Positions 1,274-54,436 of a stretch of 54,663 nt of DNA are shown here, one piece after another (positions within the stretch are counted from its first letter, which is position 1; each line of letters starts with the position of its first letter). A program made the position numbers and the translations under genes. The notes under the pieces are model-generated. The model searched no databases. It saw only the letters and a list, made by a program, of their open reading frames with translations, and was not told the origin of the DNA. The stretch comes from a virus (lineage: Duplodnaviria; Caudoviricetes), in the IMG/VR virus record IMGVR_UViG_3300048792_000052, positions 1 to 54,663 of that record. One strand, given 5' to 3'.

Positions 1274-1588
1274 GTGAGTCAGCCGGCTCTAAAACGACGA
1301 AAACACAACGCGCTGAAGGCTAAAGCCTATCGCTTTGACGCGCGCCTGAATGCAGAGCAAAAGGTTCTCATACAAAAGGCAGCCGATCTTGAGGGCCGGA
1401 CCATGACGGACTTCGTCCTGCATAGCGCGGAAGCCGCCGCCGAACGCACCATTCAAGAGCGAGCAATCTTGATTCTGAGCGCACGCGAGACCGAGACTTT
1501 TGTGGATGCCATCCTGCACACCGCCCAACCCGGGCCTGTTTTACGGTCCGCAGCTCGGCACTACAAGAACACAATCGGCCGACGGTGA
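1274..1588 (+). CDS. DUF1778-family RHH antitoxin (TacA/AtaR-like)
   Basis: RFDARLNAEQKVLIQKAADLEGRTMTDFVLHSA...LSARETETFVDAI; 4-nt overlap with the GNAT gene. Confidence 0.88.
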   Translation: MSQPALKRRKHNALKAKAYRFDARLNAEQKVLIQKAADLEGRTMTDFVLHSAEAAAERTIQERAILILSARETETFVDAILHTAQPGPVLRSAARHYKNTIGRR

Positions 1589-2097
1589 GTCTGATTCCGT
1601 CTTCTTTCGAACCCCTCGCGGATCAGGATAAGACCAGCTTCACATGCGGCGTCGCAGAACTGGATGAGTATTTTCGCCGGCAGGCGAGTCAAGACGCGAA
1701 GCGGAAGGTGGCCGCGCCCTTCGTAATGTTGGACCAAGGGCGTCGCGTTGTAGGCTATTACACCCTGTCCGCGTATGGAATTCGCATCGCGGAATTGCCT
1801 CCGGCGGTTGCCAAGAAGCTTCCGAAGTATCCGCTCATCCCAGCGACCCTACTCGGCCGTTTAGCCGTGAGTCAAGACCATCGCGGACAGAAACTCGGAC
1901 GACTCCTGTTAATGGACGCCCTTTATCGAAGCTGGAAGAACACAAGAGTGATCGCCTCGATTGGCGTTGTGGCCGAGGCCTACGATGAGTCGGCGCGTAG
2001 CTTTTATCTGCATCACGAATTCGTTCCTCTCTTGGAGCATCCGCGAAAATGTTTCATTGCCATGGGAACCATCGAGAAAGCCTTCGCCCGAATGTGA
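1585..2097 (+). CDS. GNAT acetyltransferase toxin (TacT/AtaT-like)
   Basis: SFTCGVAELDEYF, VVGYYTLSA, IPATLLGRLAVSQDHRGQKLGRLLLMDAL, ARSFYLHHEF. Confidence 0.9.
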   Translation: MSLIPSSFEPLADQDKTSFTCGVAELDEYFRRQASQDAKRKVAAPFVMLDQGRRVVGYYTLSAYGIRIAELPPAVAKKLPKYPLIPATLLGRLAVSQDHRGQKLGRLLLMDALYRSWKNTRVIASIGVVAEAYDESARSFYLHHEFVPLLEHPRKCFIAMGTIEKAFARM

Positions 2098-2111: not shown

Positions 2112-2133
2112 TGGCGGAAGCTAGTGGGAGTCG
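2112..2133. repeat. Left att core: duplicated 3' end of tRNA-Sec
   Basis: TGGCGGAAGCTAGTGGGAGTCG is identical to 54342-54363. Confidence 0.95.
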
Positions 2134-2703: not shown

Positions 2704-3183
2704 TCACAACCCCAAAATCTCGCGAATCCGTAGCCGCGCCATTTTATCTGCCGGAGTGCCGCCCGGCCGATTCACCCATGATTTGAAAGCCGCGATTTTT
2801 ACGTGGTGTTCCACTTCGGGCTGTGCTGCGCATACGGTGATCGTGGTTATGCCCTCGGGTATTTCTCCGGCCCACGCGGAACTTTTAATCGCTTTCAATC
2901 CGCGGGCGACGGCTTCGAAAAGCGTATCTGCGGTGACGTGAGCGGTGTGCTCAATCCCTTCCATGTCGGTAACGGAGACGCGGCAGGAGCGGTTCGGCAC
3001 GTCGGACATTTTAGCAAGATTCGCCTTTTGTTCGCTCGCCTGAGCAGTCGGGAGCCAAATGCCTTGGAGGTCGTGCCAGGCGTGCGCAGCAATCCAGGAA
3101 AGACCGAGGATCAGCGTCGCAAGAACGATGGCGTTATACAGGATGTTGTGGGCAATCCTATCGAGGCCGGGCGGCGTGTGCAC
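2704..3183 (-). CDS. Hypothetical protein: N-terminal TM helix plus a small C-terminal domain (possible second start at MSDVPN)
   Basis: GAAAGGAG SD before GTG; hydrophobic ILYNAIVLATLILGLSWIAA; C-terminal RSCRVSVTDMEGIEHTAHVTADTLFEAVARGL. Confidence 0.65.
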   Translation of the reverse strand: MHTPPGLDRIAHNILYNAIVLATLILGLSWIAAHAWHDLQGIWLPTAQASEQKANLAKMSDVPNRSCRVSVTDMEGIEHTAHVTADTLFEAVARGLKAIKSSAWAGEIPEGITTITVCAAQPEVEHHVKIAAFKSWVNRPGGTPADKMARLRIREILGL

Positions 3184-3185
3184 AG

Positions 3186-4120
3186 AAATCTCCTTTCCGG
3201 CGTAAAGAGATTCGCTCTATCGACCCCGAAGGGTTCTCTTGGCTGCTACTGATGCCCCCGCCGGAGGGCTAACTGCTCAAAAACTTCTTGGTTACAGCGT
3301 CAAAGGCATAACTTGGTTTCATTATGTCGAAGCCACAAAAGCTATACCTATACCTACAGTAAGCATATCATCAATCCCATCGTTTCGGCTCAACCTTGTT
3401 TTTTGTTTCGGTGGATATGCGACTTCCCCGCCGAAAAAAATCGGGCGGAGAAGTCGCAATCTTCTTGTCCTTGTTTCGTATGGACGTTTGCGATGGATCG
3501 GCTTAAAACGTTGAACTCTGAAAGATTAGGACGGTGGGGTTTGCCTGGTACTCACCCACGATGCCATTTGAATAAGCATTCGCGTCTTTCCCATCGTCAC
3601 CCACAACCGATGCCGTTCGGCAGCTTCGCTTCAGCTTGGCAACCCTGTCAACAAGTTCCCGCTACTTGATCCGCATTTTCAAGTTGAACGTTCGCGGGGC
3701 GGGCCTTTTTGCGGTAGGTATCCCTCTTGGGTAAGCAGACGGCTCGCTTTAGTAGGCGTGTCCACCAGTCGAGCAATTACCCCGACGACACAACCGTGTT
3801 CACCGTCACATCCTAATCTTTCAAAGAACAACGCCGACGCGCGGGGAAGTCGTAAGAAGCCGCGACGTTCTTTTGATTCGCCCAATCCAGTTGCCCTTCC
3901 AGCGAATATAAAAAGCTCTTTGGCGAAGTGGCGAGGCAAGATGCACTTTAGAAGGTGCATACGGGACGATTGCTCGTACCGCCTCTCCACCTACCCAAAA
4001 AGCTTGGGTGTAGGATTTACTTCGCCGTCCATGAAAGGACCCTTGAAGTATGAGCCATCCCCAGAATCCGTCAACCTGGGGATAACAAAACCGCCCGTTC
4101 CCGATAAATCGAGTGGGCGG
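3186..4120. ncRNA. Candidate large structured non-coding element
   Basis: No convincing ORF; nested long-range complementary blocks (3519-3531/3811-3823, 3420-3431/3841-3852) and many local hairpins. Confidence 0.5.
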
Positions 4121-4217
4121 CTCGCGCGACTTGCACAAAATATAACGGGGTAGCGTACTAGAAGGTTACTGGGCGGTGCCTGTCAACTTTCGGCGGATTT
4201 CCGCAATCTTGGAGCCG

Positions 4218-4601
4218 TCAATGGATTCCGCCGGTTTCGAGGCAAACAAACTTGTCGGTCTGGCGGGTACATTTCCAGACAACTGTGCCATATTCTGGCT
4301 GTTCTTTGCGCCCCCAGACCTCAACTGATATCTCGTGGGCGGGGCCGTCGTCGCACGTGAAATAGCCCACGGCATATCCGACTTTCATTCGTCCCACGGG
4401 TTGTTGAAAAGGGTTTGTAAAGCAAGATTTGCTCTCGCCGACAAACCAATTACCTTGCGCGGTGAGGTTCGTTTCGACGGTGTGCTCTATGAGTCCTGCC
4501 CCATCTAGGTACTCGTAACCTTCTATAGCGGCACCAACGGTCACGGCTATCAGTATGTATGCAACCCAACCGATAACCGCATTGCTCTTCTGTGGTGCCA
4601 C
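4218..4601 (-). CDS. Hypothetical membrane-anchored protein with paired Cys
   Basis: 127-aa ORF, N-terminal TM, four Cys in the soluble part. Confidence 0.6.
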   Translation of the reverse strand: MAPQKSNAVIGWVAYILIAVTVGAAIEGYEYLDGAGLIEHTVETNLTAQGNWFVGESKSCFTNPFQQPVGRMKVGYAVGYFTCDDGPAHEISVEVWGRKEQPEYGTVVWKCTRQTDKFVCLETGGIH

Positions 4602-4770: not shown

Positions 4771-4821
4771 AAAGAAAAACCGCCCAGCCCGCTAGTCGAG
4801 CTTCAATGGCGGTTTTTCTTT
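4771..4821. terminator. Bidirectional intrinsic terminator
   Basis: 14-bp perfect inverted repeat AAAGAAAAACCGCC (4771-4784) / GGCGGTTTTTCTTT (4808-4821) just downstream of the GH26 gene. Confidence 0.7.
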
Positions 4822-4838
4822 TGCGGATTTCCGCGATC

Positions 4839-5648
4839 TTAGAGCAGAGCTTTGAGGGTTCCGAGCGCGGCGGAGCCAAGAGTGAATGGGGACTGGTTGA
4901 AGTAGATAATCCCCTTCGCGCCCGATGCGAATGCCGCTTGCAGGAAGGCTGACTGGTTGTCTAAGCTTACCGCTCCGATTGAGGTGGCCCAAAGCGGCTT
5001 ACCAAACGCTTGCATGACAGGCAGCGATTCGCTGAAAACTTGTGAGAAGTTTTGTCCACCGAAATCGAACCCATCGAGTCCCACAATATCCACATAAGCA
5101 CTCCCAGGATAATAAGCGGTGAGAGCAGAACAAGACATACCAGTTCCGCATACGTTCGGATCATAGGCAAACTTTACATTACTGTCGCCGGAAAACAAGG
5201 AGTGGATGTGAATCCAGGCAGCTTTGAAAGCAGTCGGGTTGCCGTAGTACGGACTCCAGTCGCCGTTCATCTCGTCGAGCGGGGCAAAGATGACGGGCTG
5301 TCCATAGGACTTCATTTCGCTGGCCCAGACTTTGAGGAATGAATCCGCGTCGCCGTTCTCGATCTGTTGTGCCGTGTAGCTCGATTCCCAATATGCGAAG
5401 ATCGGGCCGGTAATATTTTGCGAGGCAAGGTCTTCGGTGAAGTCATCGCCGTCGCCGAAGAAGAATCCCGTGTACGTTCCGTACTGCGTTTTCTTTTCGT
5501 TGTTGTACATCCCGAACTGGATGCCGGAAGGTATGGTAACAGGTGTTACTATAGGCGGCGGAACTGGCTGATGATGATGGCCGCGCGCGAAGGCGGGCGA
5601 TGCTGCGAGAAACAGGACTGCGCTGATGAGGAGAGTTATTTTTTTCAT
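4839..5648 (-). CDS. Secreted glycoside hydrolase family 26-like protein
   Basis: Signal peptide; PVIFAPLDEMNGDWSPY, FKAAWIHI, YYPGSAYVDIVGLDGFD, GKPLW. Confidence 0.8.
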   Translation of the reverse strand: MKKITLLISAVLFLAASPAFARGHHHQPVPPPIVTPVTIPSGIQFGMYNNEKKTQYGTYTGFFFGDGDDFTEDLASQNITGPIFAYWESSYTAQQIENGDADSFLKVWASEMKSYGQPVIFAPLDEMNGDWSPYYGNPTAFKAAWIHIHSLFSGDSNVKFAYDPNVCGTGMSCSALTAYYPGSAYVDIVGLDGFDFGGQNFSQVFSESLPVMQAFGKPLWATSIGAVSLDNQSAFLQAAFASGAKGIIYFNQSPFTLGSAALGTLKALL

Positions 5649-6803: not shown

Positions 6804-7064
6804 TGAAGTTGTGTTGCTGACTTGAGTTTACGACTGGTTTGGTATTCGCTTGGCGCAAAGCCCGCTTTTGATACCCTAGGACTACTTTGCGGGGTCTGCG
6901 CGAAACGAACAGAGAGCAGGAAGGGGCTTCCTGGAGGGTTCCTGCGCTAGAAAAGGGAAAATTGGATGATCTTCGTCAAGCGAAGGGTATTAAATTGTTG
7001 TGCGAATCGGAAGCCCCAGATAACGATACCGTCTTGGCGGAAATCCGCAATAAGTTATCCCCAG

Positions 7065-17474: not shown

Positions 17475-18476
17475 TTAGTACGTACCACTCTGGGTGTTCG
17501 TGATGACGGCTTTTATCATCTGCGTGTCGGCCAATTTATACGTGGCCGAAAACTTCAACGTCTGGTACACGACGTCTTTCAAACTCTTCTTGATGCCGAG
17601 GTCCTTGAAGAAAACCTGGTTCAAGGTGATGGCGAGTTCGGGATTCGCTGCGGAGCCGATCGTTACATCGGTGTTCTTCAAGTCGATAAGCATCGCCTGG
17701 CCGACGTTCGGCGTGGCGAGGAAGATGTTTTTGAAATCCGTCAGATTCTGATAGATCGCCTCCAAGGTACCGCTCACTTTGAACTCTTTGTTCAAGAAGT
17801 CTGCTGGGGCAACGCTGCCCAACACTTCCTGGTCTTCAATGTCCGCGTCGATATCAAGTTTGATGTTCTTCAACGCTATCGCAGTCGCGCCGGACAATCC
17901 CGATGCCGTCGTCGCGTACTTGAACGTCATGTACTGCGGGATGAAGCGGTTTTCCGCGACAATCGAGGGGCTGAAAGCCGATTGCGAAACGCCTTTCTGC
18001 GCTCGCACGGACATGGAGAGCTGAACAAACTTCTTGAGCTGCGCGTCGAGGGTCATTTTGTGAATGACGCCGTTCGCATGGCTGAAATCAGTCCCGCCAA
18101 GCGGATCATGCACGAACATCGTGAGCGATTGATGCTGGGCTGTCTCCCCTACGGTAAAGGTGTGGTCATAGACTACGGTTTCTCCAGCGTGCGTTGCAAC
18201 CGCTTGCGCCCCGAACATGGAGAGAAAAAGCAGCGGTGAACTGAGATCGGTGAGCGGCATTTTGAAACTGCCGTCCGCAAAGTTCTTAACCCGGTATTCT
18301 CCGATTGAGTTTTCAATCACGCCTACCGCCTGGTCGGCAGAGACGTTGTCGGCTTTCTCGTCAAAATCGAGGTCATCCCACGGCGACCAGGCCGTTGCAG
18401 CACTGATGGCTGTCCCACGCGTGGCTTCCTTTGCATACCCGTATTGGACGAGTCTTCCAATTCCTTTCTGTGACAT
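17475..18476 (-). CDS. Major tail tube protein
   Basis: GYAKEATRGTA, VYDHTFT, SLT, VSGTLEA; position before the chaperone. Confidence 0.85.
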   Translation of the reverse strand: MSQKGIGRLVQYGYAKEATRGTAISAATAWSPWDDLDFDEKADNVSADQAVGVIENSIGEYRVKNFADGSFKMPLTDLSSPLLFLSMFGAQAVATHAGETVVYDHTFTVGETAQHQSLTMFVHDPLGGTDFSHANGVIHKMTLDAQLKKFVQLSMSVRAQKGVSQSAFSPSIVAENRFIPQYMTFKYATTASGLSGATAIALKNIKLDIDADIEDQEVLGSVAPADFLNKEFKVSGTLEAIYQNLTDFKNIFLATPNVGQAMLIDLKNTDVTIGSAANPELAITLNQVFFKDLGIKKSLKDVVYQTLKFSATYKLADTQMIKAVITNTQSGTY

Positions 18477-21053: not shown

Positions 21054-21197
21054 GGTGATAATTTGTTGGCCCCTGCCTTCCCTCGACTTTAATCGGAAGG
21101 GACGAACCTCGCGGATTTCCGCAATAGTTCGACGGGCGGTTTATGAATCCGTTCCGGCCTGCAATCAGGAATAACTGCAAGCCGGACCGGAAAGAGC

Positions 21198-37595: not shown

Positions 37596-37736
37596 GTTCT
37601 CTGAAGCGCTGAGAGCGGCACCCGAGGATTCAATGAAACCGAAGCAAGTTGTTCAAAGCGTAGAAGAAATTCGGCGTAACTGGAGGTTTGCGGAAATCCG
37701 CAATGGTATTATGGTGGGTGAAAAAGGAGCGATTAA

Positions 37737-39054: not shown

Positions 39055-39453
39055 TCAGAACAGCATGTGTTGGGCTTCGACCTTTGGCCCAGAATTGAAG
39101 AACCTGTCTTTCATCGGGATATCGAGCTGTTGCTCTAGTTCGAATAGTTCTTCCTCTCGCCGCGCCGAGATTGCGGAAATCCGCAACGGGAATGACATCT
39201 GATACCAATAGAGTGCTTGGTTCTTTGGGTCGTGCCAGCCGCGAATCAGGCACTCGGTCTTGCCACGCCACTTGCCATCCTTTAGATCCGCGACTCTCGC
39301 CCCGACACGGGCAAGACTTTTCATATCCCCGCGCCCGCACTCCGGACAGTAGTTGGCTGACGGATAGACCACGCGGACGATTTCGTCCGTACGATGGGGC
39401 TGGTTGTCGCTCAATAGGTTGTAGAGGCGCTCGGTTTGTGATGGGGATTTCAT
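39055..39453 (-). CDS. Winged-helix-like protein
   Basis: SQTERLYNLLSD..PH...LARVGARVADL...YWY; start MKSPSQ inferred. Confidence 0.6.
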   Translation of the reverse strand: MKSPSQTERLYNLLSDNQPHRTDEIVRVVYPSANYCPECGRGDMKSLARVGARVADLKDGKWRGKTECLIRGWHDPKNQALYWYQMSFPLRISAISARREEELFELEQQLDIPMKDRFFNSGPKVEAQHMLF

Positions 39454-43602: not shown

Positions 43603-44491
43603 GAATCCAGTTTGCGGAAATCCGCAATATCAAAGTGGAGGATGTGCTTGCCCACTACGGAGTGGAAACGCGCAAGCGGTCCACTACGGAACTGGTAGCC
43701 AACTGCCCGTTCCCGTCCCATAAGGAAACGGAACATAAAAACGGGAATCCTACTCTCTGCATTTCGCTCGAACTGAACCGCTGGTTCTGCCAGAGTTCGA
43801 AGTGCCGAGAAATATCCAACAAGCCCAAAGGCGGGGACTGCATTGATGTCGTCGCCATGATGGAGAATCTGACTCCGCTCGATGCCGCGAAAAAGCTGGC
43901 GGAGTTGTTCGGCGGAAATCCGCAATCTCGACCAAACACTGTAAGAGCGGACACCCCTCACCCCCTTCAAAGCCGAATCCTCCCCTCGCCTTCACGCTGA
44001 AACTTGACCCCGATCACCCAGCCATCAGAGAAAGGGGAATCAGTCTGGAAACGGCGATGGAGTTCGGAGTGGGGTTTTTCTCTGGCAAGGGAAGCATGGC
44101 TAATAGAGTGTGCTTCCCCATCAGAGAAAACGGCGCGATCGTGGCTTACGCGGGCCGGACCATTTTGCCCGTTTCGGATGAGAACCCTAAATGGAAGATT
44201 CCTGCCGGTCTTCAGCGCACGTTTGTCTACGGGTTAGAAAAGTGCGATCCGGCAAAACCACTCATCCTATGCGAGTCGCCGTGGGGATGTCTATGGCTAT
44301 TTCAGCATGGACGGCAAGCCGCGGCGCTCGTCGCTTGCAGTATGACATCCGAACAAGAAAAGCGGCTCGAGCCGTTCAAGGTTATCCAGCTCGCTTTTGA
44401 CAATGACCAATCGGGCCGCGATGCTACCGCAAAGATAGTTGAACGTTTGCGCGGGAAGCACACGGTACTGAAATCGTACCTGAAGGAATAG
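43599..44491 (+). pseudogene. DnaG-like primase (CHC2 zinc finger plus TOPRIM) split by a frameshift near 43925-43975
   Basis: Frame 1: CPFPSH...WFC...GGDCID; -1 frame: NPPLAFTLKLDPDHP..RERGI..ET..EFGVG...YAGR...CES...AFDND. Confidence 0.75.
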
Positions 44492-49773: not shown

Positions 49774-49852
49774 TGGAAGCTGGGCGGTAGGATTCGAACC
49801 TACATCTCGCGGACAACTCCGCGTGCATCTACCGTTCTGCTACGCACAGCTC
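49774..49852 (-). ncRNA. tRNA-like element (non-canonical anticodon arm)
   Basis: Minus strand has D arm GCA..GG..TGC, T arm GTAGG-TTCGAAT-CCTAC and a 3' CCA; anticodon loop is only 6 nt (AGTTGT). Confidence 0.65.
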
Positions 49853-53206: not shown

Positions 53207-54268
53207 TTATGAAAATTGCTTCACGCGGACGAGCTGGGGCTTCCAGGTGGAACGGATAAGTTTTGTGAGCTTCTTTTGCCGCGCCCGGTTCCATCCAGCG
53301 TAAACTGTCGCAACGAGTTGTGGGCTGTTGCCGAGGATCATAGCGACTTCGGTAACAGGAACGCCTTGCTCCAAGAGGGATGCAGCCAGGGTGTGGCGAT
53401 AGCGATGGGGATGCGCGCCTTCCACCTTCGCACGGGTAAAGAGCTTGGAAAGGTCGTCCCTGAAATTATTGACGGCGGTTTGCTTCTTCCCTTCCCCGGT
53501 CGCGAAGAAGAAGTCATTGCTCTTGTTCGGACATTTTTCGAGGGCTTCAACGACGTGTTCAGGGAGTGGCAGCCAGACGGGCGCACCGGTTTTTGCGGTG
53601 TATAAAAAAAGGTTTCCGTCTTTCAGCTTGCGGCGCTGGAGCATCACGGCGTCGGCGATTCGTAAACCGCTATGGCGCAACAAGAGAACCATTGCGTAAT
53701 GCCTCGGATGCTTCGATGCTTCGGCTTCGATAGCGAGAAGTTCCTCCGGCTCGAAAGGGGAAACTTGTTTCGGCGGAACTTTCGGCATGGCAAGATCAAG
53801 CGCGGGATTCTTTTTCACCCACTCCTGCCGGATGGCGTGCTTCCAAAAACTCCGCAGCCGTTCGATGTACTTTGCGCTCGTGAGCGCGGACCACGTCCAC
53901 TCGTTCCTGAACTTTTCGATGAGGGGTGTGTTGATGGCGTTGAGGGGAAGATCGGTGAACGCGGCGAGCTTGTCCAAGATTATTTCAAACTTCCGAACGG
54001 TCGCCGATGAGACGTTTTTCTTCTTGAGATGTTCAAGAAAAAGTCTCTTGGCCTCGGCTACCGTGACGGAGGGCTCGGCTGGCGCTTCGCCATCCTCGAT
54101 CTGGCGCTTTAAGACTTCCCCACGCGTCCAGCTCCGCGTTTTCAAACTGCGGCGGATGTACTGGCCCTCAACGGTTCCCTCGCAATGTACCGCGCACCGG
54201 CACTTTCTGAAGTAGCGGTCCTCCTTGTGGGGGCATTTGGATTTGTGCCGTCGCCAGAGGATGAGCAT
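53207..54268 (-). CDS. int: Tyrosine integrase
   Basis: LLRHSGLRIAD, KTG, HPHRYRHT, LGNS, Y; adjacent to the tRNA att site. Confidence 0.93.
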   Translation of the reverse strand: MLILWRRHKSKCPHKEDRYFRKCRCAVHCEGTVEGQYIRRSLKTRSWTRGEVLKRQIEDGEAPAEPSVTVAEAKRLFLEHLKKKNVSSATVRKFEIILDKLAAFTDLPLNAINTPLIEKFRNEWTWSALTSAKYIERLRSFWKHAIRQEWVKKNPALDLAMPKVPPKQVSPFEPEELLAIEAEASKHPRHYAMVLLLRHSGLRIADAVMLQRRKLKDGNLFLYTAKTGAPVWLPLPEHVVEALEKCPNKSNDFFFATGEGKKQTAVNNFRDDLSKLFTRAKVEGAHPHRYRHTLAASLLEQGVPVTEVAMILGNSPQLVATVYAGWNRARQKKLTKLIRSTWKPQLVRVKQFS

Positions 54269-54341: not shown

Positions 54342-54363
54342 TGGCGGAAGCTAGTGGGAGTCG
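54342..54363. repeat. Right att core (within the tRNA-Sec 3' end)
   Basis: Identical to 2112-2133. Confidence 0.95.
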
Positions 54364-54436
54364 AACCCACCTGCGACACGGAGTGCCCCACGCTGGTTTT
54401 GAAGACCAGGCCCAGCACCGGCCAAGACTAGCTTCC
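54342..54436 (-). tRNA. selC: tRNA-Sec (UCA)
   Basis: 95 nt, GGAAGCTA/TAGCTTCC 8-bp acceptor stem, CTTCAAA anticodon loop, long variable arm, GGTTCGACTCC, GCCA end. Confidence 0.93.

What the first reader, a model, noticed from the sequence alone, without database searches (positions are those of the whole stretch)
3186..4120. ~0.95 kb gene-free region with nested long-range pairing and an alternative-pairing switch: candidate large ncRNA or folded ssDNA element
Seen: TGAAAGATTAGGA (3519-3531) is the perfect complement of TCCTAATCTTTCA (3811-3823). The rod extends with CGTTG/CAACG (3509/3829), ACGGTG/CACCGT (3531/3801), GGGGT/ACCCC (3536/3779) and CTGGT/ACCAG (3545/3764). CGACTTCCCCGC (3420-3431) can pair either locally (hairpin 3418-3458) or perfectly with GCGGGGAAGTCG (3841-3852). 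A second multibranch domain is closed by GGCGAAGT/ACTTCGCC (~3922/4019) and contains ATGCAC/GTGCAT and ACCCAA/TTGGGT stems, followed by ATCCCCAG/CTGGGGAT and CCGCCC/GGGCGG hairpins. The ORFs here look spurious. Inference: a large phage RNA (size class of GOLLD/ROOL, identity not recognised), a switching leader, or an Frpo/ssi-like ssDNA structure relevant to mobilisation.
Basis: partly seen in the sequence, partly recalled or inferred. Interest (0 to 1): 0.72.

Follow-up and report, generated by a model that had tools for sequence, protein, structure and literature searches.

The report
Conserved folded noncoding module in soil phages
A gene-free stretch near one end of a soil-bacterium prophage holds a folded, noncoding module that related phages keep by matching changes on both sides of its helices, so it is probably a new regulatory RNA, of unknown job, at the join between the phage's late genes and its swappable cargo genes.

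Summary
Window 3186-4120 has no credible gene and folds far better than shuffles (z -6.9 on the + strand, -5.8 on the - strand). Five control pieces of the same length gave z -0.25 to +1.2. It lies inside a tRNA-Sec-integrated prophage of a Bryobacterales (Acidobacteriota) host, 1-2 kb from attR.

Its heart is a conserved unit, 3398-3916:
- an "anti-core" with hairpin H1 (3418-3458);
- a swappable insert (3534-3808);
- a "core" (3809-3916) with two small hairpins.

Three related IMG/VR phages carry the same unit and a fourth carries a diverged one. Both core hairpins covary too. The 11-14-nt alternative pairing between H1 and a core loop is present in 4 of 4.

The unit always sits between the end of the late operon and the integrase/cargo slot. 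No Rfam family matches, and it is not GOLLD or ROOL. The strand and the function are unresolved.

My best reading is a cis-acting RNA switch or processing site at this junction (confidence 0.4). It is a new family of a familiar kind.

The parts
3398..3416 (.). Outer segment of the anti-core. It can pair with the 3' part of the core (3898-3916).
   Evidence: In the + strand fold it pairs as 3398-3406/3908-3916, 3407-3410/3903-3906 and 3412-3415/3898-3901. Duplexes of -7.7 to -14.7 kcal/mol on the + strand are found in 4 of 4 homologues. A contig of run X8 departs from the window just left of 3404.
3418..3458 (.). Hairpin H1. It has a 15-bp stem, followed on the + strand by a U-rich tract. One arm can instead pair with the loop of core hairpin 1.
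   Evidence: I2. z -6.48 on the - strand and -4.09 on the + strand. The lower 9 pairs are invariant in 3 of 3 aligned sequences and the upper stem covaries. The closing pair is T-A in the window and G827, and A-T in G810. G810 carries a VRR-NUC gene inside its loop.
3459..3507 (.). Inner anti-core with the conserved block TTGCGATGG (3487-3495).
   Evidence: Conserved in alignments A2 and A4. BLAST matches in G827, G829 and G810.
3508..3533 (.). Left arm of the long-range rod I1.
   Evidence: In register with three other phages, 87.5% of 104 cells pair on the - strand and 81.7% on the + strand. Nine of 26 positions carry a Watson-Crick to Watson-Crick double change.
3534..3808 (.). Swappable insert domain closed by rod I1.
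   Evidence: 3582-3750 is 85% identical to record G840. It is replaced by unrelated, shorter sequence in G827 and G810, and is absent in G829, where anti-core and core lie 12 nt apart.
3809..3834 (.). Right arm of rod I1. This is the left edge of the core.
   Evidence: As for the left arm. Near-identical copies in other metagenomes stop at about 3814-3818.
3839..3865 (.). Core hairpin 1. The stem is 3839-3844/3860-3865. The conserved 15-nt loop 3845-3859 is complementary to an arm of H1.
   Evidence: 2 of its 6 pairs change on both sides. The loop:H1 duplex is -18.3 to -28.6 kcal/mol in 4 of 4 homologues. There are three copies of GCGGRGAAGTCG in the region, at 3420, 3445 and 3841.
3876..3907 (.). 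Core hairpin 2. The stem is ATTCGC/GCGAAT (3876-3881/3902-3907), with a conserved 20-nt loop.
   Evidence: 2 of its 6 pairs change on both sides, and 100% of cells pair.
3913..4005 (.). Long hairpin H5. It is not shared with the IMG/VR relatives. Its base is kept and its tip replaced in a soil contig.
   Evidence: z -4.81 on the - strand and -3.96 on the + strand. The contig of run X17 is identical over 3816-3928, diverged with gaps over 3929-3974, and alike again up to 4007. The first 16 residues of P0003 equal the translation of 3941-3988.
4054..4123 (-). Two hairpins just downstream of gene 4218-4601. The first (4123-4088, followed by UUUUGUUAU) looks like that gene's intrinsic terminator.
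   Evidence: Fold of 4040-4125 on the - strand: -39.7 kcal/mol, z -4.78. The consensus scan did not list it, because its loop is longer than 8. G829 has a listed two-way terminator 9 nt from its core.
3187..3212 (-). Hairpin that pairs the AAGGAG ribosome-binding site of ORF 2704-3183 (GTG start at 3183).
   Evidence: The - strand fold pairs 3212-3204 with 3195-3187. The regulatory role is inferred.

Best explanation
The stretch contains a member of a previously undescribed family of structured noncoding elements. The family is carried by a clade of temperate phages of Bryobacterales (Acidobacteriota).

The conserved unit (window 3398-3916) is built from:
- a 'core' of two small hairpins with nearly invariant loops;
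- an 'anti-core' holding a strong hairpin (H1);
- a long-range rod (I1) that joins the two and closes an insert that differs from phage to phage.

One arm of H1 can pair either with its own partner or with the loop of core hairpin 1. The outer anti-core can pair with core hairpin 2. The unit therefore has two mutually exclusive folds.

It always lies at the join between the end of the late operon and the integrase/cargo slot. I think it most likely works as RNA, in cis, as a conformational switch or processing site. It would set whether transcripts pass this join and how long they last, much as a terminator-plus-RNase-site retroregulator or an attenuator does.

Shown: conservation, covariation, position, and absence of coding. 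Inferred: that it is RNA, the strand, and the regulatory mechanism.
For: Fold excess:
- z -6.89 and -5.75 for the region against -0.25 to +1.21 for five controls.
- For the unit alone, z -2.86 and -3.13 with 0 of 100 shuffles as stable.
- G827 unit -3.77 and -2.62; G829 unit -2.00 and -1.94.

Homologues:
- BLAST of 3186-4217 hit 5 of 41 TerL-related IMG/VR records.
- The core covariance model hit 3 of 42.

Covariation:
- Rod I1: 104 cells, 87.5% paired on the - strand and 81.7% on the + strand, against 33-50% when slid by 1-3. Nine of 26 positions carry a Watson-Crick double change, against 0-2 when slid (table).
- Core hairpins: 98.2% of 56 cells paired against 25-48% when slid. Covariation score 0.333 against 0.120 +/- 0.051, reached by 0 of 500 shuffles.
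- H1 upper stem and closing pair covary.

Alternative pairing: the H1 arm with the core loop is as stable as H1's own stem in 4 of 4 homologues.

Position:
- A DUF932 late-region gene lies on the - strand to one side in 5 of 5 relatives.
- An integrase lies 0.6-3 kb to the other side in 5 of 5.
- In the window the integrase is the circular-map neighbour across attP.
- Terminator-like hairpins flank the unit.

Noncoding. All 3 residue changes between P0005 and the window's frame over the core are nonsynonymous.

RNA rather than double-stranded DNA: a helix that closes 12-279 nt of unrelated insert is hard to form in duplex DNA (inference).
Against: - No transcript evidence exists. No RNA run holding the stretch was listed.
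- The strand is unsettled. Wobble pairs favour the - strand in the window (12 against 2; controls elsewhere 93 against 116). In the homologues it is only 12 against 9. G827 folds better on the + strand. A U-rich tract follows H1 on the + strand in 4 of 4.
- The genes beside the anti-core are unrelated from phage to phage. They run on the - strand in 3 of the 5 phages that carry the unit or a diverged form of it, and on the + strand in 2. No single 'leader of gene X' model fits.
- Only 4-5 sequences support the covariation, and G810 and G827 are close in the core.
- The unit is absent from most relatives (37 of 42 by BLAST or model), so it is dispensable.
- The core's 97-100% identity in soil and freshwater contigs, with unlike flanks, would also suit a protein-binding DNA site or a mobile cassette.
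Confidence: 0.4

Rival explanations
1. It is a stand-alone, trans-acting structured RNA with its own promoter and end, in the way GOLLD, ROOL and other ornate phage RNAs are thought to be. Its invariant loops would serve tertiary contacts or a partner molecule rather than control of neighbouring genes.
For: - The two core loops (15 and 20 nt) are nearly invariant while their stems covary.
- The core is 97-100% identical in contigs from soil and freshwater runs and in a JGI contig, with unlike flanks.
- Neighbouring genes differ between phages.
- Terminator-like hairpins bracket the unit.
Against: - No conserved promoter was found. The TATATT at 3905-3910 is not kept in G827 or G810.
- No Rfam family matches.
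- H1 would end a + strand RNA after about 60 nt, and no terminator follows the unit on the - strand.
- The fixed position at one genomic junction suits a cis role.
Confidence: 0.25
2. It is a DNA-level element. Inverted copies of a protein-binding module (GCGGRGAAGTCG occurs three times) would mark a recombination hot spot where cargo genes and inserts are exchanged. The 'structure' would be a by-product of the inverted repeats.
For: - The anti-core looks like a diverged inverted copy of the core (local score 36 against 21.6 +/- 3.9 for shuffles, maximum 41).
- There are three copies of the 12-mer within 435 nt, against 0.99 matches expected in the whole window.
- Inserts sit exactly inside the hairpins: a VRR-NUC gene in the H1 loop of G810, and swappable domains inside I1.
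- The related record G001 ends 216 nt past the gene that corresponds to window 4839-5648, about 0.9 kb short of where the unit would lie.
- Fold excess is similar on both strands.
Against: - Compensatory changes at 9 of 26 rod positions, with entirely different inner sequences in four phages, are not expected from a protein site or from passive repeats only 18-26 bp long.
- No recombinase other than the integrase lies nearby.
Confidence: 0.17
3. It is a miniature foldback or MITE-like mobile element, or a pile of such cassettes, with no function for the phage.
For: - Sharp ends of the roughly 97-nt core in four contexts: the window, X17, X21 and P0005.
- Short direct repeats flank H1 in each homologue, seen by eye.
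- Presence among relatives is patchy.
Against: - One copy only in the window record.
- No copy in the 3 nearest host genomes, in 401 Bryobacterales genomes or in 401 Acidobacteriota genomes. The last search gave only three 23-32-nt chance-level hits.
- No terminal inverted repeats at the ends of the core (sequence).
- Position and orientation relative to the late operon are the same in all carriers.
Confidence: 0.1
4. The region encodes one or more small proteins that were missed.
For: ORFs of 91-131 codons exist on both strands. Two database proteins, P0003 and P0005, match parts of them.
Against: - No Pfam or PHROG hit for 5 ORFs.
- ORF 3821-4138 (-) has no relative among 5.8 billion proteins.
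- P0003 and P0005 share only short identical blocks and then diverge. They are rich in Cys, Arg and Trp.
- All 3 changes in the core frame are nonsynonymous.
- The frames are not kept in G827, G829 or G810, whose alignments carry indels that are not multiples of three.
Confidence: 0.03

Closest known systems
GOLLD (RF01998) and ROOL (RF03087) large ornate RNAs of phages and prophages
   Same: Noncoding, highly structured, carried by phages or prophages, function unknown. I saw only the search listing and the start of the abstracts for 10.1101/2024.12.08.627333 and PMC5737381.
   Different: No match to either covariance model, even at E <= 10. The conserved unit here is about 250-550 nt with a swappable middle, not a 600-800-nt fixed architecture (sizes recalled). 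It sits at one fixed genomic junction.
Lambda tI/sib retroregulation of int (recalled; no paper holding all four search terms was found)
   Same: A structured site in the nonessential region beside the integration module. A terminator hairpin can be extended into a longer duplex when transcription reads on, which could make an RNase III target. In G827 and G840 the integrase and one further gene are transcribed towards the element.
   Different: In the window the integrase is transcribed away from attP and from the element. In G829 and G810 the genes beside the element run the other way. RNase III cleavage is untested. This unit is much larger and has conserved loops.
RNA immunity systems of P4 (CI RNA with seqA/seqB/seqC) and P1/P7 (C4 RNA) (recalled)
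   Same: A short sequence is repeated, in sense and in complement, within one transcript, so that one segment can pair with alternative partners and decide termination.
   Different: Those lie in the early/immunity region and act through a small processed RNA. Here the site is at the late-operon/cargo junction, and no small RNA is shown.
Earlier scan note e1-6064722: a gene-free array of folded modules in a soil Acidobacteria temperate phage
   Same: Same host phylum. Gene-free, hairpin-rich, with modules shared between related phages as shuffled cassettes.
   Different: It is in another genome and another place, between recombination and replication genes. No sequence likeness to this region was found in the scan's index. 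Its claims were not tested here.

Membership tests
GOLLD / ROOL / any Rfam 15 family | Match to the family's covariance model at its gathering score | tested here: not met
   In the whole window only tRNA-Sec passes. For 3000-4400 at E <= 10 the only match is a chance miRNA hit at 17.1 bits against a gathering score of 64.
Structured RNA (generic) | Thermodynamic stability beyond dinucleotide shuffles | tested here: met
   against controls 46-50. Homologues; G829 is only marginal, at z about -2.
Structured RNA (generic) | Base pairs kept by compensatory changes in homologues | tested here: met
   Rod I1: 9 of 26 positions, against 0-2 when slid. Core hairpins: 4 of 14 pairs, score reached by 0 of 500 shuffles. 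H1. Only 3-4 sequences per helix.
Structured RNA (generic) | It is transcribed, on a defined strand | not testable with these tools
   No RNA holder was listed for the stretch. The wobble bias is 24 against 11 in favour of the - strand overall, which is not decisive.
Lambda sib/tI-type retroregulator | Lies downstream of int, on the int transcript when it reads through | tested here: inconclusive
   True of G827 and G840 (int, then one gene, then the element, all on one strand). Not true of the window, G829 or G810.
Lambda sib/tI-type retroregulator | RNase III cleavage of the extended hairpin | not testable with these tools
   Needs an enzyme assay or 3'-end mapping.
Intrinsic terminator | G+C-rich stem followed directly by a U tract | tested here: inconclusive
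   4123-4088 plus UUUUGUUAU on the - strand, and H1 plus a U-rich tail on the + strand, fit by eye. The consensus scan lists neither. G829's flanking hairpin is listed.
MITE / foldback mobile element | Many dispersed copies with terminal inverted repeats and target duplications | tested here: not met
   Single copy in the record. None in 3 + 401 + 401 host-lineage genomes. Exact core words are absent from IMG/VR and from GTDB species genomes.
Invertible DNA switch (inverton) | Both orientations of the segment between the inverted repeats present in reads | not testable with these tools
   Only assembled contigs could be laid, and these drop minority forms. See Tried and rejected.
Protein-coding gene | Conserved open frame with a protein-like substitution pattern | tested here: not met

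The most novel reading that the evidence does not exclude
The unit is a new class of modular 'carrier' RNA of soil and freshwater phages. A small, almost invariant core (97-100% identical across peat, soil and freshwater metagenomes) would act in trans or as a catalytic or recognition centre. Its closing helices would serve as docking points into which whole RNA domains, and even a nuclease gene, are inserted and exchanged. On this reading it is an RNA-level cassette system, or an intron-like or otherwise mobile RNA, rather than a mere regulatory leader.
Probability: 0.12. Interest if true: 0.85.

Novelty: new variant of a known kind. Interest (0 to 1): 0.58.

Why it matters
Acidobacteria are among the commonest soil bacteria, and almost nothing is known about how their phages are regulated. 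This is a covariation-supported structured noncoding element from that world, with no Rfam match.

It has a clear architecture: core, anti-core, a rod with a swappable insert, and a conserved alternative pairing. It also has a fixed place at the boundary of the variable cargo slot. In relatives that slot holds a cytosine methylase with Vsr, an Abi-like protein and a VRR-NUC nuclease.

If it controls read-through into that slot or into the integration module, it would be a new handle on how lysogens express such cargo genes. If the core acts in trans, its near-identity across habitats would point to a widespread phage RNA function.

The element is small enough for direct tests: probing, reporters and compensatory mutants.

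Tried and rejected
Searches for a known RNA family
- Rfam at gathering score and at E <= 10 gave nothing relevant.

Searches for like DNA
- BLAST against phage records and plasmids: no match.
- Exact words of the region or core in IMG/VR and in GTDB species genomes: none.
- The scan's own index by sequence: none.

Synteny route
- The neighbours ORF 4218-4601 and ORF 2704-3183 have no relatives in IMG/VR by single-protein scan.
- ORF 4218-4601 has relatives in 7 metagenome loci. DNA likeness stops at its stop codon. nhmmer of the region found nothing there.
- Those loci have another context: an IS3-type transposase and an NHL-repeat protein.

Host genomes
- No match in the 3 nearest genomes or in 401 Bryobacterales genomes.
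- In 401 Acidobacteriota genomes there were only three 23-32-nt hits at E 3e-4 to 5e-4 per genome, which I take as chance.

Coding tests
- Pfam and PHROGs.
- Read-through of TGA, TAG or TAA.
- Large protein searches.
- A protein-atlas look-up of ORF 2704-3183 gave only a 0.75 score to an unnamed Acidobacteriota cluster.

Expression
- No RNA holder was listed for the stretch, so nothing can be said on transcription.

Inversion of the segment between the 13-nt repeats
- The contigs laid showed no strand-changing joint. Contigs drop rare forms, so this says little.

A promoter inside the core
- TCGCCA-18-TATATT (3934-3905, - strand) is rejected because it is not conserved in G827 or G810.
- I also looked by eye for a sigma-54 site and for a conserved -35/-10 in the core and saw none. 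This was not a tool result.

The core as an independent fold
- On its own, 3816-3928 has z +0.48 and +0.43. The support for its two hairpins therefore comes from covariation, not from energy.

The 300-nt z-score scan stopped at base 18000 for lack of time.

The MAFFT alignments A2 and A5 put gaps inside the rod arms. I therefore counted the rod in an ungapped register anchored on conserved flanking words. In one search one anchor was misplaced for G810, and I corrected this.

I built the core covariance model R1 from only 4 sequences. It recovered only its 3 non-window training sequences among 42 records.

Supplementary files of papers were not opened. For the two papers cited I saw only the search listing and the first lines of the abstracts. 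The lambda sib/tI and the P4/P1 comparisons are recalled knowledge; the one search for lambda sib/tI listed no paper, and I made no search for P4/P1.
Full report
WHERE IT IS

The window is one IMG/VR virus record of 54,663 bases. A 22-nt direct repeat at 2112-2133 and 54342-54363 equals the 3' end of a tRNA-Sec gene at 54342-54436 on the - strand. A tyrosine integrase lies next to that tRNA at 53207-54268 on the - strand. A contig of run X8 runs from the host flank across 2133 into tRNA-like sequence, which looks like an empty site.

The prophage therefore spans about 2134-54341. The left 2.1 kb is host DNA: an HDOD protein and a TacA/GNAT toxin-antitoxin pair. The HDOD protein is 96% identical to one in a Bryobacterales genome assembled from palsa metagenome data.

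The structural genes all lie on the - strand: large terminase, portal and tape measure. The finding lies 1-2 kb inside the attR end. It sits between ORF 4218-4601 (-), a real Cys-rich small protein with relatives, and ORF 2704-3183 (-).

THE OBSERVATION

The 935-nt stretch folds at z -6.89 on the + strand and -5.75 on the - strand. Five other 935-nt pieces of the same record gave z between -0.25 and +1.21.

Local contributors:
- hairpin H1, fold of 3405-3475: z -6.5 (-) and -4.1 (+);
- a long hairpin, fold of 3905-4035: z -4.8 and -4.0;
- two hairpins, fold of 4040-4125 on the - strand: z -4.8.

The first of those two hairpins is followed by UUUUGUUAU. It looks like the terminator of the upstream gene.

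NOT CODING

- Five ORFs of the region have no Pfam or PHROG match.
- Reading through any one stop codon opens no long frame.
- ORF 3821-4138 (-) has no relative among 5.8 billion proteins.
- ORF 3758-4153 (+), searched by HMMER against 1.84 billion representatives, found only P0003. P0003 is a Cys/Arg/Trp-rich 130-residue 'hypothetical protein'. Its first 16 residues are identical to the window's frame and the rest diverges.
- ORF 3679-3990 (-) found only P0005. P0005 shares a 33-residue block with three changes, all nonsynonymous, and has unlike flanks.

I read P0003 and P0005 as gene-caller ORFs on homologous noncoding DNA.

FIRST SIGNS OF A FAMILY

Logan contigs laid on the window showed three things:
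- A soil contig (run X17) is identical over 3816-3928, scrambled over 3929-3974, and alike again to 4007 and beyond.
- A freshwater contig (run X21) has one difference over 3818-3913 and unlike flanks.
- A permafrost contig (run X10) is about 93% alike over 3721-3811 and then diverges.

Together with P0005, this marks a core of about 97 nt (about 3814-3913) with sharp ends in four contexts.

Exact words from the core are nevertheless absent from IMG/VR and from GTDB species genomes. BLAST found nothing in the 3 nearest host genomes or in 401 Bryobacterales genomes, and only three chance-level short hits in 401 Acidobacteriota genomes.

THE HOMOLOGUES

A scan with the large terminase gave 42 related IMG/VR loci.

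BLAST of window 3186-4217 against 41 of those records hit five:
- G827, G829 and G810 match both the anti-core (window about 3399-3526) and the core (about 3812-3914), at 72-85% identity.
- G840 matches the middle (3582-3750) at 85%.
- G814 matches only 26 nt.

The 42nd record, G001, had been searched earlier. It gave only copies of a short palindrome.

A covariance model of the core recovered G810, G827 and G829, and nothing else among the 42.

The architecture is the same in all: anti-core with hairpin H1, then an insert, then the core. The insert varies:
- In G829, anti-core and core are 12 nt apart.
- Measured between the same flanking anchors, the rod-closed domain is 138 nt in G810, 235 nt in G827, 338 nt in G840 and 348 nt in the window.
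- G810 has about 470 extra nt inside the loop of H1. These encode a 105-residue VRR-NUC nuclease (E 7.7e-10).

COVARIATION

Rod I1 (window 3508-3533 with 3809-3834). I placed the window, G827, G810 and G840 in an ungapped register anchored on conserved flanking words.
- Of 104 cells, 87.5% pair on the - strand and 81.7% on the + strand. With the partner slid by 1-3 places the figures are 33-50%.
- Nine of 26 positions show a Watson-Crick to Watson-Crick double change, against 0-2 when slid.
- The inner rod reads GATTAGGA/TCCTAATC in the window, GATGGG/CCCATC in G827, GCTGAGGT/ACCTCAGC in G810 and ATGTGATG/CATCACAT in G840. Between the window and G840 the enclosed insert is 85% identical.

The core. 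Two hairpins, 3839-3844/3860-3865 and 3876-3881/3902-3907, pair in 98.2% of 56 cells against 25-48% when slid. Four of 14 pairs change on both sides. The covariation score is 0.333 against 0.120 +/- 0.051, reached by 0 of 500 shuffles.

H1. The lower nine pairs never vary and the upper stem covaries. The closing pair is T-A in the window and G827 and A-T in G810. In G829 it is C.A on the + strand, which is G.U on the - strand.

Caveat: these are three or four sequences per helix, and G810 and G827 are close in the core. The number of independent events is therefore small.

THE SWITCH

In 4 of 4 homologues the loop of core hairpin 1 is complementary over 11-14 nt to one arm of H1. The duplex energies are -18.3 to -28.6 kcal/mol. 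They equal or exceed those of H1's own stem, -21.6 to -25.8 kcal/mol on the + strand.

The segments on either side of H1 can each pair with the 3' half of core hairpin 2.

The unit thus has two exclusive folds: local hairpins, or an extended anti-core:core duplex. The three-way constraint would explain why GCGACTTCCCCG, GAAGTCGC and GGGGAAGTCG hardly vary. It also means that this pairing has no covariation to support it.

The one change seen is G to A in the G829 loop. It gives A.C on the + strand and G.U on the - strand.

POSITION

In all five relatives a DUF932 late-region gene lies on the - strand to the right of the place. An integrase lies 0.6-3 kb to the left. In the window's circular map the integrase is likewise the next module across attP.

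Between integrase and unit lies a variable slot:
- ORF 2704-3183 in the window;
- a cytosine methylase, Vsr and HNH endonuclease set in G829;
- an AbiTi/PDC-M14B-like protein in G810;
- unrelated genes on the + strand in G827 and G840.

The unit keeps the same orientation relative to the late operon in every carrier.

STRAND

This is unsettled.

For the - strand:
- In the window's long stems, 12 transition mismatches are G.U on the - strand against 2 on the + strand. Elsewhere in the window the counts are 93 and 116.
- Rod I1 has 10 against 5.
- The - strand is the sense strand of the late operon, and of the adjacent cargo gene in 3 of the 5 phages that carry the unit or a diverged form of it.

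For the + strand:
- G827 folds better on it (-3.77 against -2.62).
- The homologues' stems give 9 on the + strand against 12 on the - strand.
- H1 is followed by a U-rich tract on the + strand in 4 of 4.
- In G827 it sits 45 nt after the stop of a + strand gene.

Both strands may be transcribed at this convergent or tandem junction.

WHAT IT MOST LIKELY IS

It is a functional structured element kept by selection on pairing. It is probably RNA, because a helix that closes up to 279 nt of unrelated insert is implausible in duplex DNA, and a tailed double-stranded-DNA phage offers no obvious single-stranded stage. That step is inference.

Given the fixed junctional position, the flanking terminator-like hairpins and the conserved alternative pairing that involves a terminator-like hairpin, I favour a cis-acting switch or processing site. 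It would govern read-through and transcript stability between the late operon, the cargo slot and the integration module (confidence 0.4).

The rivals are:
- a stand-alone trans-acting RNA (0.25);
- a DNA-level recombination or binding module (0.17);
- a MITE-like passenger (0.10);
- coding sequence (0.03).

COMPARISON WITH WHAT IS KNOWN

It is not a member of GOLLD, ROOL or any Rfam 15 family.

It works most like a terminator-plus-extended-duplex retroregulator (lambda tI/sib), or like the alternative-pairing immunity RNAs of P4 and P1. Both comparisons are recalled, and for both the defining position is not met in the window.

The theme is the same, the sequences are not alike, and I did not test that note.

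VERDICT

This is a new family of structured noncoding element with real comparative support, in a poorly known group of phages. Its function and strand are still open.

Noticed in passing
window 4191-4206, 4821-4836, 7035-7050, 21109-21124, 37688-37703, 39171-39186, 43612-43627 and others: The palindromic 16-mer TTGCGGATTTCCGCAA gives 21 strand-matches, about 17 distinct sites, with <= 2 mismatches, against 0.14 expected. Sites lie between genes and inside ORFs. Several copies are also in the related record G001. It looks like the site of a DNA-binding protein spread over the phage genome.
   Followed up: partly
window 2112-2133 and 54342-54363; 54342-54436; 53207-54268: Prophage ends: a 22-nt att repeat equal to the 3' end of tRNA-Sec, with a tyrosine integrase beside it. 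A contig of run X8 shows the unoccupied site. CheckV's figure of 61% complete may understate a prophage that has both ends.
   Followed up: partly
window 1274-1588 and 1585-2097 (+): A TacA antitoxin and a GNAT acetyltransferase (TacT-like) pair lies in the host flank right next to attR. Homologues of both also lie near a relative of ORF 4218-4601 in metagenome locus L006.
   Followed up: no
window 49778-49850 (-): ARAGORN reports a tRNA-like gene with an odd two-base anticodon '(tt)' inside the early region. Rfam did not call it at gathering score.
   Followed up: no
L076:6728-7045 (+), record G810: A 105-residue VRR-NUC nuclease gene sits inside the loop of the H1 hairpin of the homologous unit. 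This is a gene inserted into a conserved hairpin.
   Followed up: partly
L075:1036-3926 (G829); L076:7130-7966 (G810): The slot between integrase and unit holds different cargo in each phage. G829 has a C5 cytosine methylase, a Vsr endonuclease and an HNH endonuclease. G810 has a protein with an AbiTi/PDC-M14B-like end.
   Followed up: partly
L003:1677-2050, L004, L005: Relatives of ORF 4218-4601, 80% identical, lie beside an IS3-type transposase and an NHL-repeat protein, not in a phage context. They match in two pieces, as if interrupted near residue 52.
   Followed up: no
reverse complement of L077, about 2200-2260 and 2716-2815 (G840): By eye, G840 holds a diverged core to the right of its insert. 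It also holds a second, partial core-like stretch to the left, in direct orientation, and GCGACTTC lies on the far side of the core. The core model did not score either stretch.
   Followed up: no
window 3398-3416 and 3472-3485, and the same places in G827, G829 and G810: The segments just before and just after H1 are short direct repeats. They change together from phage to phage: TGTTTCGG in the window, TGTTCCCT in G827, ATGTTCGG in G829 and TTTGTTCGG in G810. Each can pair with the 3' part of the core.
   Followed up: partly
L009 / record G001: The closest related record (large terminase 91% identical, GH26-like protein 83%) ends 216 nt after the gene corresponding to window 4839-5648. That is about 0.9 kb short of where the unit would be. 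The assembly may break in this variable region.
   Followed up: no
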